A stretch of DNA of 25,186 nucleotides, taken from UHGV virus genome UHGV-1407433. One strand, 5' to 3'. Of this stretch, positions 531 through 5,193 are shown in pieces. Position 1 is the first letter of the stretch. Every line of letters starts with the position of its first letter. The notes beneath the pieces were generated by a model. It searched no databases and was not told the origin of the DNA. It saw nothing but the letters and a program-made list of their open reading frames with translations. A program made the translations under genes and the position numbers. Origin of the DNA: a virus.

Positions 531-607
531 AACAACTCCTAAATTTAGACAACATGAAGCCCGGAGAGGTATATAACCCTCACCAGAAATAATTTCTGAA
601 TTGGTTT

Positions 608-910
608 TTAATACATGTTGGGCAACGCCAGTGTTGGCATAGCTATAGTTGTATCAAATGCCATTGACCACCCACCCAAATAATAATTGCCGACTACTTT
701 ATTCCTTTCTGCTCTGACATTCCCACCTGTCATTACAATTCCTTTATACCTAATATTTCCGTAACCACCAACGTGTCGACAGTTAGCCCCGGTATAAACA
801 ATCTGGCAAAATTCATCACCAATATTCAGGTTCGCATTGGCGATATTTATTGCCCCATCAAAAATGAATGGCTTCGTGCAAGTAAGAAGACGTTTGCGTT
901 GACGATTGGT
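608..910 (-). pseudogene. Start-less ORF remnant (100 open codons), Gly/Asn-rich, fibre or beta-helix-like C-terminal fragment; probably frameshifted continuation of the frame of ORF 847..1104
   Basis: Hand-translated frame open from stop at 913-911 to TAA at 610-608: TNRQRKRLLTCTKPFIFDGAINIANANLNIGDEFCQIVYTGANCRHVGGYGNIRYKGIVMTGGNVRAERNKVVGNYYLGGWSMAFDTTIAMPTLALPNMY. The only ATG/GTG/TTG start leaves 41 aa. The upstream ORF 847..1104 in another frame ends with a similar rung motif (ILVDGLNKPIVNANV vs IFDGAINIANANL). Confidence 0.35.
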
Positions 911-972
911 TTATTCAATCCATCAACTAAAATACCATGTAAACGAATTGCCATAACATTTCCTACTTTATT

Positions 973-1000
973 TGACTTACTCAACACAACAAGTATATTA
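973..1000 (+). promoter_or_regulatory. Candidate sigma70 promoter for the lipoprotein moron (-35 TTGACT 973-978; -10 TATATT 994-999, 15-bp spacer)
   Basis: Hexamers read by eye about 40 bp upstream of the SD of the 1037..1270 ORF. Spacer is short, so this is tentative. Confidence 0.25.
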
Positions 1001-1036
1001 AAATTGAACCTTGTCAACAACCTAAAAGGAGTCCCG

Positions 1037-1270
1037 ATAAAACGTTCTATTGTAATTTTGACATTAACATTTCTGTTATCTGCTTGCGGTACTGGTTTGG
1101 ACACAGGAAAGCCTAATTCCGGTGTTATTCCAAAACCTTTAGACCGTGACGGTAACGGTTCTTTAATCTATGACACTGAAAAACTGCCTTATACTGGTCA
1201 ATGGTGTCATGAACTCGATCACAATATGCGCCGCATCGGTAGCCCGTCCAACTGTGTAGCTAACTACTAA
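1037..1270 (+). CDS. Small putative lipoprotein (moron), about 77 aa, apparent non-ATG (ATA) initiation codon
   Basis: AAGGAG at 1026-1031, then 5 nt, then codon ATA at 1037-1039 in frame with KRSIVILTLTFLLSAC-GTGLDTGKPNSG... (basic n-region, hydrophobic h-region, lipobox LSAC). Opposite strand to the phage late operon, AT-rich, followed by a hairpin terminator. The ORF-track version 773..1270 starts at GTG and adds an implausible 88-aa extension. Confidence 0.4.
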   Translation: MKRSIVILTLTFLLSACGTGLDTGKPNSGVIPKPLDRDGNGSLIYDTEKLPYTGQWCHELDHNMRRIGSPSNCVANY

Positions 1271-1300
1271 AAAGAAAACCACGCGCGAAGCGGGGTTTTT
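1271..1300. terminator. Bidirectional intrinsic terminator between convergent J and the lipoprotein gene
   Basis: Imperfect GC-rich hairpin AAAACC-ACGC-GCGAA-GCG-GGGTTTT (about 1275-1299) with T-runs on both strands (plus: TTTTTGTTTATT; minus: TTTTCTTTTT), sitting between the stop at 1268-1270 (+) and the J stop at 1303-1305 (-). Confidence 0.55.
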
Positions 1301-1302
1301 GT

Positions 1303-4300
1303 TTATTCAGAGAATGAACCTGAACCGCGCGACACTATGACGGTCGGTGAGTTTATATACGCACCCATACCATTTTGAGCAGATACTCTAATTTTCACTG
1401 TAACCCACCTGCTATATACTGCTGATGAGTGCATCACAAGGCGCTCGGTGCCATCAACGGAAAGATTTTTCTCTGAACCGTTAATGTTTATTGTACACCC
1501 ACCAAAACCTTTTACGTTTGCCATAACGCAGATATGTCTGCTATGTGCTGCGTCAGATGTGTCATTGTATGTGATTGTTTTTTCGAGTACCCCATTATTT
1601 AATCTACTAACGTCAGATCCTGTGTACATGTTTGCAACATCACCGATAAACGAACTTGCTTCCACTGTTCCAGTAAATCTACCGTTGGTTGCATACACTG
1701 TACCTGTGAAAGATCCGTTGCTAGCGTATACAGTACCTCTGACAGTTACGTTGTTGAATTCAGCATCTCCAGCTTTATTCAACTTCCAGCCAGCAGAACC
1801 AGCAACATAATTGTTCGACTGGATAAAATTACCAATCTTTGCGTTGCTGATAGTGCCGTCCTGGATGAAACTGTCCCGGATGAATGTCTGCCCGTTCTGG
1901 ATCACAAACGGTAAAGCCACGCTATTTCCGGCTGCCGTGGTGACGGCGAAGCGATCAGCCAGGAAGATAACCTGCGACTGCATGCCGGATGGCGTATTCT
2001 CCACGCCGATACCCATCCCCGCGGCGTAATACTGCCCGTTGCTGGAGACACCAACCTTGATGTTGTACATCGCGATGAGGTCGCCGTTTACGTTCGCTAT
2101 AGCCTGAGCGTTGGTGGTGATGGCTGAGGTATGCCCGTTCACCGTAGCCGTAATGCCGTTTATCTGCGTGGCCGTTGCCTGCTGATAGTCGGAGAACGTC
2201 TGATTCAGGCTGTTTATGGATGCCTTGTTGCCGTTGACATCCGTCTGCAGGCTCAGCAGAGAGCGCGCCGTTGCCTCCTTCTCGTTAACGATTACCTCAT
2301 CAATACGATCCAGCTGCGCACTGTTACCGGCGACCGTCGCGGAAAGCCTTTTGCGTGTGGCCACCTGCGCCAGCCCGTTCTGGATAATGGCAATGGCTGA
2401 GTTCTTGACCCCGCCCGTCATGCCGTCCATAGACACGCTGATGCTGTCGATTCGCTGGCCCAGCGCGGTATCAGCCGTTGCGACGGTCTGCTCAAGATCT
2501 GATAGAGAGGAAGATACATCACCGACCGTGCTCGAAAGCTCATTAACACTGGTCTGAACCTGCCCAATGTCCTGCGCGTTTTTTGCGATTTCCTGCGCCT
2601 GGAGCTCAAGTTCATCGTTGGCCTGTTTGATGTCGTCAGCCATGCCAGCAATTTTTTCATTGCTGTCCACCGCGTTCTCGATCAGGTCTTTGAACGTATC
2701 GGAGTCTTTAATTTCCTCCAGAATCACATCTGTGATATCGGAAACATCGATGCTGGCCTGTCCTCGCACCCATTCTGTGTACCCTGATTCGTTGCCGCTG
2801 CGGTCCACCAGCTGCGCGCGGTACCAGAAAATCTGCCCAGCCTTAAGGCCCATCTGCTGATATTTGCGCTGCGGGTAAGGCACATCGGCCAGCAGCATGG
2901 CATCGTCTTCAGTACCGGTCAGGCTGTACTGAATTTCCGTCTTCAGCGTGTCGTCGGTATTCGCCTGGAATCCCCAGTTCAGCTCGATACCGAACACCAC
3001 GTTTTCAGAGGCGATAAAGCCAACCGGCTTCGGTGGATTGCCCACTTTACCCGTCAGCGTTTTCTCTTCTGAATAGCCCCATCCGGATGAAATTTCTGCG
3101 GCATTGATTGCGCGCACCCGCACCAGGTAGCGCCCGGCATAAATCCCCGGGACGTCGAATGACGTGGTGGAGGTGCGCGGCACGTTAACCCAGTTCCCGT
3201 CGTTGCGGCGCCATTGCGCTTCATAGGCGATAGCGTTCTGCGCCTGGTCCCAGCTCACGCGCATTGTTTCGACGCTGATATTTTGCTGAACCACGGAAAA
3301 CGAGCTGATCACGATATTCGCAGGCGGCGACTGGTTGCCCGGCGGGATCACGCTCACCGGCCGTTGGTCAATGATGGCTCCGGTATCGATACGGGCATAT
3401 TTATCCGGGTCGTGCCATGCGCCGGTAATCGAGAAAGTGCCATCATTGTTATCGGAAACGCTGACAACACGATACTGCTGCGCGTAAAGCTCGTCAGATT
3501 CAACCACCCAAACAGCTTCGGCCTGTGGCGTCTCACTGTATGCCGTGGTGACTGTGACTGATTCCCCGTTCACGGCCTGAATGGTCCTGCTCTGCGACGC
3601 TCCGGAAGGCAGGTTGAGAATAAGGCGATCACCTGGTGCTGCATCAGCTACGCGGTCAAGTTTGATAACGCGACCGTTAACGGCGCTGATGCGGCCGCCC
3701 ATAACCTTTCCGGAAAGCAGCTCGTCTGCCACGGCGATGATGTAGCCCGGCTGCGGAATGTTTCCGTCCAGCCCGACATCAAACGAAACAACGCGATCCT
3801 TGTTATTGGTGAGAATACCCCAGCGCCCCTTTCGGTTCGCCTCTGACTGCCTGGTGCAGCCGATGGCTGTCATTTCCAGCTGATTGAAGCCGTACCGCGC
3901 CACCAGCGCCTGCTCAAATACCGGCTCCATCGCGTCGGCATAAGCGTTACCCGGGTCTGACCATGAAACCAGCGCTGTGGTGTAGCGGCTTTTGGTGGTG
4001 CTGCCCGAATAGGTAAAGCGCCCATTAACCACGTTTGCACGCGTGTAGCTGTAATCCACATCGCGGGGCATATCCGCCAGCGCAACGATTTGATCGCCAC
4101 CCCAGTACGTCATGCCCCGGAATATCGCCGCAAAATCACGTAACACGGTATAGGCGTCATTCCTCTCCTGCACGTACACGTTACAGGTATAGCGAGGCTC
4201 AGTGCCGCTACCGCCTTTACCATCAGGAACCGGCTGATCGCAATATTGCGCGACCTGATAAAGCGTCCATTTATCAATATTGGCCGCCGTCAGGCGATTG

Positions 4301-5193
4301 CCCAGCCCAAAGCGGTCGCTCACCACCAGATCGTAAAAAATCCAGGCTGGATTATCCGTCCACGCCCACTTAAACGCCCCTGTCCATGTGCCGCTGTAGG
4401 TGCGGGTCTCCGGGTCATACGTATCCGGAACGCGGATTACACGCCCTCGCGGTTCGCAGGATATTTGCGGGATAGAGCCGTTAAACTGGCTTGAGTCGAA
4501 TTCGATGTACAGCAGCGCGGTATTTGGATAACGCAGTTTGGCGTCAATAACCTCTGTGTAGCTCTGCAGCGTCATCGTGTCGCCAATTTTCGCGCTGTTG
4601 GCATCCGCCGTAAGCTTACGCAGGCGCACCGTCCATGTACTGCCTGCCTGTGGTAAATCGATACGATGGCTGCGTTCGTAGCCGGAAGTTGTCTTGCCGG
4701 TTACGCTGGTATTAAGTACCGTCTGCCAGGTGCCGCCATCGGTCTGCAGATCAATAGCGTAGTTAATTGAATAGCCAACCAGATCGCCATCATCCTCCTG
4801 TTTAAAAAGCGATGGCCACTTGAGGCGCAGGCGAACGGCTGACAGTTGCGTGTTGGTAAAGGTATGTGTCCAGCCGGTGGTGCTTGACACTTCGGTGCCC
4901 ACGCTGATTTCATTTTCTGTGCCGGGGATACCCTGAATATATTTTTGTGCCTGAGTCCCCGGACGAAATTCCCACGCCACGCCACTGAAGTTTTGCGATC
5001 CGTCTGCATTCTCCAGTGGCGTGCCATCGAGATAGATATCCTTCGCCGTCAACTGCCCTGCAAATTCGCCCTCTCCCAGTGCAACAAGAATTTTGGCTTT
5101 CGCTACGGACTGGAGATCGTCTGGTTGTTCAGTCGGGGTGCGTGAACTGGAGCTGCCGCCCTTGCGGCCTCTAATCGGAGTAGATGTAGCCAT
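1303..5193 (-). CDS. J: Tail tip / host specificity protein J (central tail fibre), 1296 aa
   Basis: ATG at 5193..5191. Long protein at the lambda J position downstream of I. Conserved J-family core (e.g. ...NPAWIFYDLVVSDRFGLG..., ...GTEPRYTCNVYVQERNDAYTVLRDF...) with a divergent C-terminal receptor-binding region. Confidence 0.93.
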   Translation of the reverse strand: MATSTPIRGRKGGSSSSRTPTEQPDDLQSVAKAKILVALGEGEFAGQLTAKDIYLDGTPLENADGSQNFSGVAWEFRPGTQAQKYIQGIPGTENEISVGTEVSSTTGWTHTFTNTQLSAVRLRLKWPSLFKQEDDGDLVGYSINYAIDLQTDGGTWQTVLNTSVTGKTTSGYERSHRIDLPQAGSTWTVRLRKLTADANSAKIGDTMTLQSYTEVIDAKLRYPNTALLYIEFDSSQFNGSIPQISCEPRGRVIRVPDTYDPETRTYSGTWTGAFKWAWTDNPAWIFYDLVVSDRFGLGNRLTAANIDKWTLYQVAQYCDQPVPDGKGGSGTEPRYTCNVYVQERNDAYTVLRDFAAIFRGMTYWGGDQIVALADMPRDVDYSYTRANVVNGRFTYSGSTTKSRYTTALVSWSDPGNAYADAMEPVFEQALVARYGFNQLEMTAIGCTRQSEANRKGRWGILTNNKDRVVSFDVGLDGNIPQPGYIIAVADELLSGKVMGGRISAVNGRVIKLDRVADAAPGDRLILNLPSGASQSRTIQAVNGESVTVTTAYSETPQAEAVWVVESDELYAQQYRVVSVSDNNDGTFSITGAWHDPDKYARIDTGAIIDQRPVSVIPPGNQSPPANIVISSFSVVQQNISVETMRVSWDQAQNAIAYEAQWRRNDGNWVNVPRTSTTSFDVPGIYAGRYLVRVRAINAAEISSGWGYSEEKTLTGKVGNPPKPVGFIASENVVFGIELNWGFQANTDDTLKTEIQYSLTGTEDDAMLLADVPYPQRKYQQMGLKAGQIFWYRAQLVDRSGNESGYTEWVRGQASIDVSDITDVILEEIKDSDTFKDLIENAVDSNEKIAGMADDIKQANDELELQAQEIAKNAQDIGQVQTSVNELSSTVGDVSSSLSDLEQTVATADTALGQRIDSISVSMDGMTGGVKNSAIAIIQNGLAQVATRKRLSATVAGNSAQLDRIDEVIVNEKEATARSLLSLQTDVNGNKASINSLNQTFSDYQQATATQINGITATVNGHTSAITTNAQAIANVNGDLIAMYNIKVGVSSNGQYYAAGMGIGVENTPSGMQSQVIFLADRFAVTTAAGNSVALPFVIQNGQTFIRDSFIQDGTISNAKIGNFIQSNNYVAGSAGWKLNKAGDAEFNNVTVRGTVYASNGSFTGTVYATNGRFTGTVEASSFIGDVANMYTGSDVSRLNNGVLEKTITYNDTSDAAHSRHICVMANVKGFGGCTININGSEKNLSVDGTERLVMHSSAVYSRWVTVKIRVSAQNGMGAYINSPTVIVSRGSGSFSE

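What the first reader, a model, noticed from the sequence alone, without database searches (positions are those of the whole stretch)
608..1104. Start-less, apparently frameshifted ORF remnant between the lipoprotein moron and stf
In an AT-rich stretch where stops should be frequent, one minus-strand frame stays open for 100 codons (910..608) yet has no usable start; the sequence is Gly/Asn-rich and fibre-like. The adjacent frame (ORF 847..1104) ends with a similar rung motif, suggesting a single ancestral gene broken by a frameshift near 870-890 and truncated at its 5' end, possibly by acquisition of the lipoprotein moron. It may be a ghost of a former tail-fibre or receptor-binding module left by module swapping.
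Basis: seen in the sequence. Interest (0 to 1): 0.4.

Follow-up and report, generated by a model that had tools for sequence, protein, structure and literature searches.

The report
Dead receptor-protein gene remnant in prophage
The start-less open frame is the dead last quarter of a phage gene for an LptD-binding receptor protein, joined out of frame to the first 28 codons of another phage's side-fibre gene; it marks where an E. coli prophage swapped its host-recognition module, an ordinary kind of phage mosaic scar.

Summary
The open frame exists as described: 910..608 on the minus strand, 100 codons, with no ATG/GTG/TTG upstream of 733. Its length alone is not beyond chance, but its homology is decisive. 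Positions 870..608 are the 3' end, with the native stop codon, of a DUF6453 (PF20051) gene. It aligns to residues 223-321 of PDB 9RPT chain C, the LptD-binding receptor protein of phage Oekolampad.

The neighbouring frame is not the same gene. Positions 954..871 are the first 28 codons, with ATG and ribosome-binding site, of a Queuovirinae lateral tail-fibre gene (PF08400). They match phage JenK1 at 83 of 84 nt. The apparent "frameshift at 870-890" is therefore an out-of-frame junction of two unrelated genes at about 871/870.

The identical junction is seen in all 29 sequences inspected (8 E. coli prophage alleles including Nissle 1917, 11 viral contigs, 10 metagenome contigs). All 37 E. coli genomes that carry the piece carry only this piece. 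No intact relative above 55% identity was found.

The remnant evolves neutrally (15 nonsynonymous to 5 synonymous changes). The adjacent stf gene is constrained (54 to 101).

Most likely a LamB-type J tip plus lipoprotein cassette from a Queuovirinae-like phage replaced an LptD-type receptor gene. Interest is modest.

The parts
608..870 (-). 3' remnant of a DUF6453 / LptD-type receptor-binding protein gene. It covers roughly the last 88 of about 320 codons and includes the native stop at 610..608. It is a pseudogene. The frame stays open up to 910 only because 871-910 happens to lack stops in this frame.
   Evidence: Homology: Pfam PF20051 positions 223-289/291, E 1.2e-21; PDB 9RPT_C residues 223-321, E 8e-20; PHROG 1265 positions 241-332/332. 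It ends ...LPNMY* like SPN3UB gp38 ...LPDMY*. Across 19 alleles there are 15 nonsynonymous and 5 synonymous variants, with codon positions 8:6:6.
871..954 (-). Stub: the first 28 codons (ATG at 954..952) of a Queuovirinae-type lateral tail-fibre gene (PF08400 family), joined out of frame to the remnant.
   Evidence: JenK1 fibre N-terminus MAIRLHGILVDGLNKPIVNANVFLLARS is identical in protein and 83/84 nt. KurtStettler bas22_0022 starts MATRLHGILLDGLNKPIINATVALIAK and carries PF08400 at residues 1-133. PHROG tail-fibre families match at positions 1-30.
847..954 (-). Residual 35-codon ORF of the stub (MAIRLHGILVDGLNKPIVNANVFLLARSHSFLMGQ*), preceded by AGGA at 964..961. It may be translated from late transcripts. 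No function is expected.
   Evidence: Translation; sequence read directly.
531..607 (-). 77-nt spacer between the remnant's stop and the stf start codon (ATG at 530). It is conserved together with the remnant.
   Evidence: The same 77-nt spacing occurs in all 11 IMG/VR loci. Mean pairwise difference is 1.7%.
955..1036 (+). Intergenic region shared with Queuovirinae. It holds a sigma-70-like promoter, TTGACT-16-TATATT, at 972..999 pointing at the lipoprotein gene. Together with the stub it forms the conserved right-hand flank of the exchangeable cassette.
   Evidence: Promoter scan. Alignment with KurtStettler, Nissle and ABWA45. The breakpoint against the L015/L018 cassette falls exactly at 954/955.
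1037..1270 (+). 77-codon lipoprotein gene, the presumed superinfection-exclusion partner of the J tip. In this window the start codon is ATA instead of ATG.
   Evidence: PHROG 12984 'lipoprotein', E 7e-44. Lipobox LLSAC. The 5' half is identical to KurtStettler bas22_0021, and ATA replaces ATG. PGAP instead calls a 165-aa ORF from GTG 773.
1303..1773 (-). Variable C-terminal tip of J (about the last 157 codons). It is of the HK97 / KurtStettler (LamB-type) kind and forms the left part of the exchanged cassette.
   Evidence: HK022 and mEpX1 J genes are 95% identical only from window ~1773 upward, whereas HK97 J is 78.7% identical over 1290-2300. The KurtStettler J C-terminus is 50% identical over 347 aa and much higher in the last 170. 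KurtStettler targets LamB (PMC8594841).
1..530 (-). 5' part of the lambdoid side tail-fibre gene stf (ATG at 530), the native downstream neighbour of DUF6453 genes.
   Evidence: ORF and translation. In SPN3UB and L022 the order is J, then DUF6453, then an stf-like gene. The gene is under purifying selection: 54 nonsynonymous to 101 synonymous.

Best explanation
Window 608-954 is a non-functional recombination scar made of two gene fragments joined out of frame at about 871/870.
- The downstream fragment (870..608) is the last ~88 codons, with the native stop, of a DUF6453 gene. This family includes the LptD-binding receptor protein of phage Oekolampad. In intact phages the gene sits directly after the tail-tip gene J and before an stf-like fibre gene.
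- The upstream fragment (954..871) is the first 28 codons, with start codon and ribosome-binding site, of the lateral tail-fibre gene of a Queuovirinae-like phage (Nonagvirus/Seuratvirus).

Inferred history:
- An ancestral lambdoid prophage had the order J, DUF6453 receptor protein, stf.
- It recombined with a Queuovirinae-like genome whose order is J, lipoprotein on the opposite strand, lateral fibre.
- The left crossover was homologous, inside J.
- The right crossover was illegitimate, between fibre codon 28 and about codon 233 of the receptor gene.
- This installed a LamB-type J tip with its lipoprotein and deleted about three quarters of the LptD-type receptor gene.

Since then the remnant has drifted neutrally. 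The stub and the adjacent intergenic region still match Queuovirinae phages, and they have since served as the right-hand crossover zone for further cassette exchanges.

Shown here: the homologies, the junction, its single origin, the neutral evolution and the multiple cassettes. Inferred: the order and direction of the events, and the receptor specificities.
For: 1. Identity of the remnant.
- Pfam DUF6453, E 1.2e-21, profile positions 223-289/291.
- PDB 9RPT chain C residues 223-321, E 8e-20. Chain C is the Oekolampad receptor-binding protein bound to LptDE (bioRxiv 10.1101/2025.07.07.663478).
- It is colinear to the stop codon with SPN3UB gp38.

2. Identity of the stub.
- 28 codons are protein-identical and 83/84 nt identical to the JenK1 fibre gene start. 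Identity ends abruptly at 871.
- The KurtStettler homologue carries PF08400 and no DUF6453.

3. Ancestral synteny. J, full-length DUF6453 and an stf-like gene occur in that order in SPN3UB and in IMG/VR locus L022.

4. Donor synteny. In KurtStettler and JenK1 the order is J, small opposite-strand gene, lateral fibre.

5. Single event.
- The identical junction is read in 8 E. coli alleles, 11 IMG/VR loci and 10 metagenome contigs, with no indels.
- All 37 of 5426 E. coli genomes that match carry only the remnant, at 96.7% identity or more.

6. No intact close relative. The best full-length relatives are 49% identical among 1.84 billion cluster representatives and 55% in IMG/VR.

7. Neutral evolution.
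- The remnant has 15 nonsynonymous to 5 synonymous variants, ratio about 0.86, with codon positions 8:6:6.
- The adjacent stf gene has 54 to 101, ratio 0.18, with codon positions 34:27:127.
- Fisher p = 0.001.
- Radical changes such as G to W, C to Y and R to I are tolerated.

8. Inconsistent annotation. PGAP calls the same DNA an 85-aa protein with an ATT start, a 71-aa protein, or a pseudogene 'missing N-terminus'.

9. Cassette exchange.
- L015 and L018 carry a different J tip and a different secreted protein, the one found in JenK1, HdK1 and ESCO3.
- They keep the same stub and remnant, and homology with the window breaks exactly at the stub's ATG.
- The Nissle cassette diverges from about window 1022.
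Against: - The parental DUF6453 gene is not sampled, so the exact crossover bases cannot be fixed. A possible microhomology lies within 874-869.
- The evidence does not separate a one-step illegitimate exchange from an insertion followed by a deletion.
- The substitution counts are small (20 variant codons). For the 41-codon ATG-initiated sub-ORF alone the ratio is 0.4 (7 to 5), which does not exclude weak constraint.
- No allele has acquired a stop or an indel in the 100-codon frame. This is expected at only about 1.4% divergence, but it is also what a real gene would show.
- The receptor assignments (LptD for the lost gene, LamB for the present J tip) are by homology only. The remnant is about 40-55% identical to characterised or intact relatives.
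Confidence: 0.88

Rival explanations
1. The two frames are one ancestral gene broken by a frameshift mutation or a sequencing error in the T5 run at 859-863.
For: - The two frames abut at 847-910.
- A T5 homopolymer lies at the overlap.
- Frame A passes into frame B by a -1 shift.
Against: - The two halves belong to different families, PF08400 and PF20051.
- Intact DUF6453 proteins have a different N-terminus and about 230 residues that are absent here.
- JenK1 fibre identity stops abruptly at 871.
- The T-run region is identical in all 19 aligned alleles and through the first five Ts in 10 metagenome contigs. This excludes an assembly error.
Confidence: 0.02
2. The frame is a genuine small protein-coding gene. 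It could be PGAP's 85-aa 'DUF6453 family protein' with an ATT start at 865, the 41-aa ATG ORF 733..608, or a fusion made by programmed -1 frameshifting from the stub's ATG.
For: - RefSeq annotates an 85-aa or 71-aa CDS in most genomes.
- The frame is intact in all alleles.
- The stub has a good ATG and an AGGA ribosome-binding site.
- AAGGA lies 7 nt before the ATG at 733.
- The 41-codon part has a nonsynonymous/synonymous ratio of 0.4.
Against: - The ratio over the whole remnant is about 0.86, with no third-position bias. Upstream of 733 there are 8 nonsynonymous and 0 synonymous variants.
- There is no canonical start and no ribosome-binding site at 865.
- PGAP's calls are mutually inconsistent, and one of them is 'pseudogene'.
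- A TTT TTG is not a canonical X XXY YYZ slippery site.
- The piece is 28% of a protein that in the solved complex is one compact unit. It has no signal peptide.
Confidence: 0.06
3. The frame is open by chance in AT-rich spacer DNA and has no coding ancestry.
For: Stop-free runs of at least 100 codons arise in 15% of composition-matched simulations of this 761-nt stretch.
Against: - Three independent profile or sequence libraries match, with E between 1e-19 and 1e-24.
- All three matches are to the C-terminal end of the same family and run colinear to the stop codon.
Confidence: 0.01

Closest known systems
Receptor-binding protein of phage Oekolampad (Bas18), PDB 9RPT chain C; Rtp44 of phage Rtp; Pfam DUF6453 (PF20051)
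   Same: - The remnant aligns to residues 223-321 of the 321-residue Oekolampad protein and ends in the same ...LPNMY C-terminus.
- Intact family members sit directly after J and before a fibre gene. The remnant has kept that downstream neighbour.
   Different: - Only about 28% of the gene is present.
- It has no start codon and is evolving neutrally.
- It is at most 55% identical to any intact relative found.
- It cannot encode a receptor-binding protein.
Lateral tail-fibre gene of Queuovirinae (JenK1 AKA61062, KurtStettler bas22_0022; Pfam PF08400 'Prophage tail fibre N-terminal')
   Same: - The first 28 codons, the start codon, the ribosome-binding site and the upstream intergenic region with the divergent small gene are shared.
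   Different: - The gene is cut after codon 28 of 583 or more.
- It continues out of frame into foreign sequence and stops after 7 further codons.
Receptor-specificity loci downstream of gpJ in small siphoviruses, each a receptor-binding protein or J tip with a cognate superinfection-exclusion protein (Maffei et al. 2021, PMC8594841; bioRxiv 10.64898/2026.04.02.716166)
   Same: - The cassette logic is the same. A J tip or separate receptor protein with a small lipoprotein is exchanged horizontally between unrelated phage groups, and the flanks are conserved.
   Different: - Here the exchange is seen in temperate lambdoid prophages of E. coli, including Nissle 1917.
- The exchange left a physical relic of the displaced LptD-type allele next to the incoming LamB-type cassette.
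Classical mosaic joints and gene remnants of lambdoid phages (own knowledge of the modular-evolution literature, e.g. Hendrix and colleagues; not checked here)
   Same: - An illegitimate joint between unrelated genes, fixed and then inherited, with novel junctions at or near gene boundaries.
   Different: - Nothing in principle. This is one well-resolved example in which both parents can be named.

Membership tests
DUF6453 / LptD-type receptor-binding protein (PF20051; RBP_Oeko, Rtp44) | Sequence match to the family profile above the curated threshold | tested here: met
   77.8 bits against a cut-off of 25, E 1.2e-21, but only profile positions 223-289 of 291. PDB 9RPT_C, E 8e-20.
DUF6453 / LptD-type receptor-binding protein (PF20051; RBP_Oeko, Rtp44) | Full-length polypeptide of about 310-325 aa with the conserved N-terminus MP(E/Q)GI(L/Y)I(D/N)YNDGRP | tested here: not met
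   Only about 88-91 C-terminal codons are present. Intact members are 311-321 aa.
DUF6453 / LptD-type receptor-binding protein (PF20051; RBP_Oeko, Rtp44) | Own start codon and ribosome-binding site | tested here: not met
   There is no ATG/GTG/TTG between 910 and 733. PGAP resorts to ATT at 865 or calls a pseudogene.
DUF6453 / LptD-type receptor-binding protein (PF20051; RBP_Oeko, Rtp44) | Position directly after gene J on the same strand and before a fibre gene | tested here: inconclusive
   The downstream neighbour (stf) and the strand are preserved. The upstream side is now the fibre stub and the lipoprotein cassette, not J.
DUF6453 / LptD-type receptor-binding protein (PF20051; RBP_Oeko, Rtp44) | Purifying selection on the reading frame | tested here: not met
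   15 nonsynonymous to 5 synonymous variants, ratio about 0.86. The stf control has 54 to 101, ratio 0.18. Fisher p = 0.001.
DUF6453 / LptD-type receptor-binding protein (PF20051; RBP_Oeko, Rtp44) | Binding to LptD | not testable with these tools
   Shown experimentally only for the Oekolampad protein. The lost gene's specificity is inferred by family membership.
Lateral tail fibre with PF08400 N-terminal domain | N-terminal sequence matching the family from residue 1 | tested here: met
   28 of 28 residues are identical to JenK1. PHROG tail-fibre families match at positions 1-30, E 9e-6.
Lateral tail fibre with PF08400 N-terminal domain | Complete ~134-position N-terminal domain and a distal fibre part | tested here: not met
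   Homology ends at codon 28, and a stop follows 7 codons later. The intact KurtStettler protein is 583 aa.
Programmed -1 ribosomal frameshift gene | Canonical slippery heptamer X XXY YYZ in the zero frame at the overlap | tested here: not met
   The overlap reads TCA TTT TTG in frame A (A TTT TTG), read directly. The base before TTT is A.
Programmed -1 ribosomal frameshift gene | Selective constraint on the downstream frame | tested here: not met
   The ratio is about 0.86 and there is no third-position bias.
Superinfection-exclusion lipoprotein paired with a receptor-binding module (Llp of T5, Rtp45, Cor-like), for the neighbouring gene 1037..1270 | Signal peptide with lipobox, small size, adjacency to the receptor-specificity determinant | tested here: met
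   LLSAC lipobox, 77 aa, directly next to the J tip. PHROG 12984 'lipoprotein', E 7e-44.
Superinfection-exclusion lipoprotein paired with a receptor-binding module (Llp of T5, Rtp45, Cor-like), for the neighbouring gene 1037..1270 | Sequence relationship to a lipoprotein with a demonstrated exclusion function, or demonstrated exclusion itself | tested here: not met
   No match to any solved structure, Rtp45 and Llp included. Exclusion activity cannot be tested with these tools.

The most novel reading that the evidence does not exclude
The fibre-gene stub and the adjoining intergenic region (871-1036) may be more than debris. They may act as a retained 'landing pad' of homology to virulent Queuovirinae phages. 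On this reading lambdoid prophages, including the one in probiotic E. coli Nissle 1917, repeatedly capture new receptor-tip plus exclusion-protein cassettes from phages that superinfect the lysogen. At least three cassette types already share this flank. A weaker variant of this reading is that the residual 35-aa or 41-aa peptides have acquired a function.
Probability: 0.2. Interest if true: 0.5.

Novelty: new member of a known kind. Interest (0 to 1): 0.3.

Why it matters
- It is a clean, datable example of how a temperate phage changes its receptor. The displaced allele (LptD type) and the incoming cassette (LamB-type J tip plus lipoprotein) lie side by side, and both parents can be named.
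- It shows gene flow from strictly virulent Queuovirinae into lambdoid prophages.
- It links the Pfam 'unknown function' family DUF6453 to a solved LptD-binding receptor protein.
- It flags a RefSeq mis-annotation: an 85-aa 'DUF6453 family protein' with an ATT start, called in most of the E. coli records inspected. This should be a pseudogene.
- It does not reveal a new mechanism.

Tried and rejected
- The word-indexed protein search with the remnant found only its own 85-aa cluster and a 63-aa fragment.
- The scan of one genome per species found nothing relevant.
- The metagenome and IMG/VR scans found only further copies of the same truncated junction, plus one intact relative at 55% identity. 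No close intact homologue could therefore be used to locate the parental crossover.
- A blastn search of 5426 E. coli genomes for an intact close relative found only remnants.
- The lipoprotein has no relative among solved structures.
- I considered a programmed -1 frameshift, an ATT-initiated small gene and a chance ORF. All three are rejected under rival explanations.
- The terminator scan did not flag the hairpin between the lipoprotein gene and J. A homologous stretch in phage mEp010 is annotated 'terminator', so I make no firm claim there.
- I did not run structure prediction. The sequence-level match to a solved structure already settled the identity.

Full report
**Source and layout**

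The window matches a lambdoid prophage of E. coli O68:H12 strain 97.3 at 100% over 400-1400 (NZ_CP061758.1). Reading the minus strand, the order is:
- the tail-tip gene J (5193..1303, 1296 aa);
- a 77-codon lipoprotein gene on the opposite strand (1037..1270);
- the region in question;
- the side tail-fibre gene stf, with its ATG at 530.

**Checking the observation**

The minus-strand frame 910..608 is open for 100 codons and ends at a stop at 610..608. Its only ATG/GTG/TTG-initiated ORF is 733..608, 41 aa. ORF 847..1104 exists in the adjacent frame. The region has GC 0.33-0.41.

The length of the open frame is not in itself remarkable. In 304 of 2000 composition-matched simulations of 540-1300, some frame had a stop-free run of at least 100 codons. 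The significance comes from homology.

**What the downstream piece is**

Frame B matches three independent libraries:
- Pfam DUF6453 (PF20051) at profile positions 223-289 of 291, E 1.2e-21;
- PHROG 1265 at positions 241-332 of 332, E 2e-24;
- residues 223-321 of PDB 9RPT chain C, E 8e-20.

Chain C of 9RPT is the receptor-binding protein of the Dhillonvirus phage Oekolampad (Bas18). It was solved bound to the outer-membrane LPS translocon LptDE (bioRxiv 10.1101/2025.07.07.663478).

Intact family members are 311-321 aa and begin MP(E/Q)GI(L/Y)I(D/N)YNDGRP. The window sequence aligns colinearly with their last ~90 residues, down to the shared ...LP(N/D)MY stop. So 870..608 is the 3' end of an LptD-type receptor-binding protein gene, with its native stop.

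In Salmonella phage SPN3UB and in IMG/VR locus L022 the intact gene lies directly after J. It is followed by an stf-like gene whose N-terminus resembles that of the window's stf. The remnant has therefore kept its original downstream neighbour.

**What the upstream piece is**

In ORF 847..1104 only the last 35 codons matter. An ATG at 954..952 is preceded by AGGA at 964..961. It opens MAIRLHGILVDGLNKPIVNANVFLLARS, followed by HSFLMGQ and a stop.

These 28 residues are identical to the N-terminus of the lateral tail-fibre protein of Nonagvirus JenK1, at 83 of 84 nt. Identity stops abruptly at window 871. The Seuratvirus KurtStettler homologue starts MATRLHGILLDGLNKPIINATVALIAK. It carries Pfam PF08400 ('Prophage tail fibre N-terminal') at residues 1-133 and has no DUF6453 match.

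The rest of ORF 847..1104 lies over the lipoprotein gene's promoter region and antisense to its first 23 codons.

The two frames are thus fragments of two unrelated genes. They are joined out of frame at about 871/870, with a possible few-base microhomology within 874-869. The parental DUF6453 gene is not known, so the exact crossover cannot be resolved.

**A single, inherited event**

- A blastn search of 5426 complete E. coli genomes found the remnant in 37, including Nissle 1917. All are at least 96.7% identical and none has a longer gene.
- Eight E. coli alleles, 11 IMG/VR loci and 10 metagenome contigs all have the same junction sequence TTGCACGAAGC|CATTCATTTTTGA.
- In all 11 IMG/VR loci the open frame is the same 100 codons and the spacer to the stf ATG is the same 77 nt.
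- The 19 aligned alleles have no indel between 531 and 1028.
- This rules out a sequencing error in the T5 run.
- An exhaustive HMMER search of 1.84 billion cluster representatives gave 49% identity as the closest intact relative. IMG/VR gave 55%. The intact parent is unsampled.

**Neutral evolution**

| Region (19 alleles) | Nonsynonymous | Synonymous | Ratio per site | Variants by codon position |
|---|---|---|---|---|
| Remnant, frame B | 15 | 5 | 0.86 | 8:6:6 |
| stf, first 135 codons | 54 | 101 | 0.18 | 34:27:127 |

The remnant's changes include G to W, C to Y and R to I. The difference between the two regions has Fisher p = 0.001.

PGAP treats the same DNA in three ways: an 85-aa protein with an ATT start, a 71-aa protein, or a pseudogene 'missing N-terminus'.

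Mean pairwise divergence is low in the remnant (1.4%), the spacer (1.7%) and the stub (2.0%). It is 7-15% in stf and 5% in the intergenic region. I read this as follows, by inference. The flanks are repeatedly replaced by recombination with homologous genes of other phages. The remnant has no partner to recombine with and only accumulates point mutations.

**The incoming cassette**

- Window 896-1300 is 79-86% identical to Queuovirinae phages (KurtStettler, 9g, Seurat, CAjan and others). In those phages the match covers 'lipoprotein | tail fiber protein'.
- The 5' half of the lipoprotein gene is identical to that of KurtStettler.
- The last 347 residues of J are 50% identical to KurtStettler J, and much more so in the last 170.
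- Other lambdoid J genes (HK022, mEpX1) are 95% identical only from window ~1773 upward. The variable tip is therefore 1303-1773.
- KurtStettler depends on LamB, as shown by complementation in Maffei et al. 2021 (PMC8594841).
- In Drexlerviridae and related siphoviruses, distal domains of J are associated with LamB, TolC or NupG specificity. Separate proteins encoded downstream of J are associated with FhuA, BtuB, LptD or YncD (bioRxiv 10.64898/2026.04.02.716166).

The likeliest history is that a LamB-type J tip and its lipoprotein replaced the LptD-type receptor gene, dragging along the first 28 codons of the donor's fibre gene. The direction of transfer follows from the stub: it is a truncated copy of a gene that is intact in Queuovirinae.

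**Later exchanges at the same flank**

Loci L015 and L018 have the same stub and remnant. However, they carry a different J tip and a different opposite-strand secreted protein, the one found in Nonagvirus JenK1, HdK1 and ESCO3. Their homology with the window breaks exactly at the stub's ATG.

The Nissle and ABWA45 cassettes diverge from the window's from about 1022.

At least three cassette types therefore share the 871-1036 flank. This suggests, but does not prove, that the flank acts as a homology arm for exchange with Queuovirinae.

The coordinates are right, and so is the idea of a receptor-module ghost left by module swapping. The model of one gene broken by a frameshift is wrong, and the protein is a tail-tip receptor-binding protein rather than a fibre.

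**Novelty**

Mosaic joints and gene remnants are a known feature of lambdoid phages. This is a well-resolved new example. It has two practical by-products: a functional link for DUF6453 and a RefSeq annotation that should be a pseudogene. Only one paper in the searchable library mentions DUF6453 at all.

Noticed in passing
window 1037-1039 (and ORF 773..1270, + strand): The lipoprotein gene has ATA where Nissle, ABWA45 and phage KurtStettler have ATG. Strain EC23HZZ201 shows the same ATA. PGAP therefore calls a 165-aa ORF from GTG 773 (WP_244574249.1) in strains 97.3 and EC23HZZ201, which would bury the signal peptide. PEC389 shows a comparable overlapping 'hypothetical protein' but was not read. 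The exclusion lipoprotein may be silenced or only weakly expressed in this lineage.
   Followed up: partly
proteins P0007, P0009, P0010: Other short proteins in public data consist of an unrelated N-terminus fused to the last 50-60 residues of a DUF6453 protein. One N-terminus is possibly DNA-binding and another looks like a terminase start; neither was tested. Retained 3' ends of displaced DUF6453 genes therefore seem to be a recurrent kind of scar.
   Followed up: no
L015 3559-3867 and L018 3559-3867 (minus strand in locus); phages JenK1, HdK1, HdSG1, ESCO3, PD328: An alternative cassette partner is a ~92-102-aa secreted Gly-rich protein (MKTLICAIILSMTATFAYATG...). It has a signal peptide and no lipobox, belongs to PHROG 2243 and has no known function. 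It is paired with a different J tip. It is possibly the Nonagvirus module whose receptor Maffei et al. could not assign. In L015 the gene appears split into two ORFs.
   Followed up: partly
window 972-999 (+): A near-consensus sigma-70 promoter, TTGACT-16-TATATT, lies upstream of the lipoprotein gene and is conserved in KurtStettler. It fits expression of the lipoprotein from the repressed prophage.
   Followed up: partly
window 1271-1302: A GC-rich hairpin with T-runs on both sides (AAAACCACGCGCGAAGCGGGGTTTTT) lies between the convergent lipoprotein and J genes. It looks like a bidirectional terminator. The scan tool did not flag it, but the homologous stretch in phage mEp010 is annotated 'terminator'.
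   Followed up: no
L002 201-1634 (window-adjacent, beyond stf): Downstream of stf the prophages carry a recombinase-family gene flanked by oppositely oriented tail-fibre-assembly genes. This suggests an invertible fibre-tip (Pin/Gin-like) switch and a second layer of host-range variation in the same prophage.
   Followed up: no
proteins P0005 (1785 aa) and P0006 (1446 aa): The N-terminal third of the remnant matches a motif repeated many times (16 matched stretches in P0006) in very large proteins of unknown origin. This may be a shared beta-rich repeat or a low-complexity artefact.
   Followed up: no
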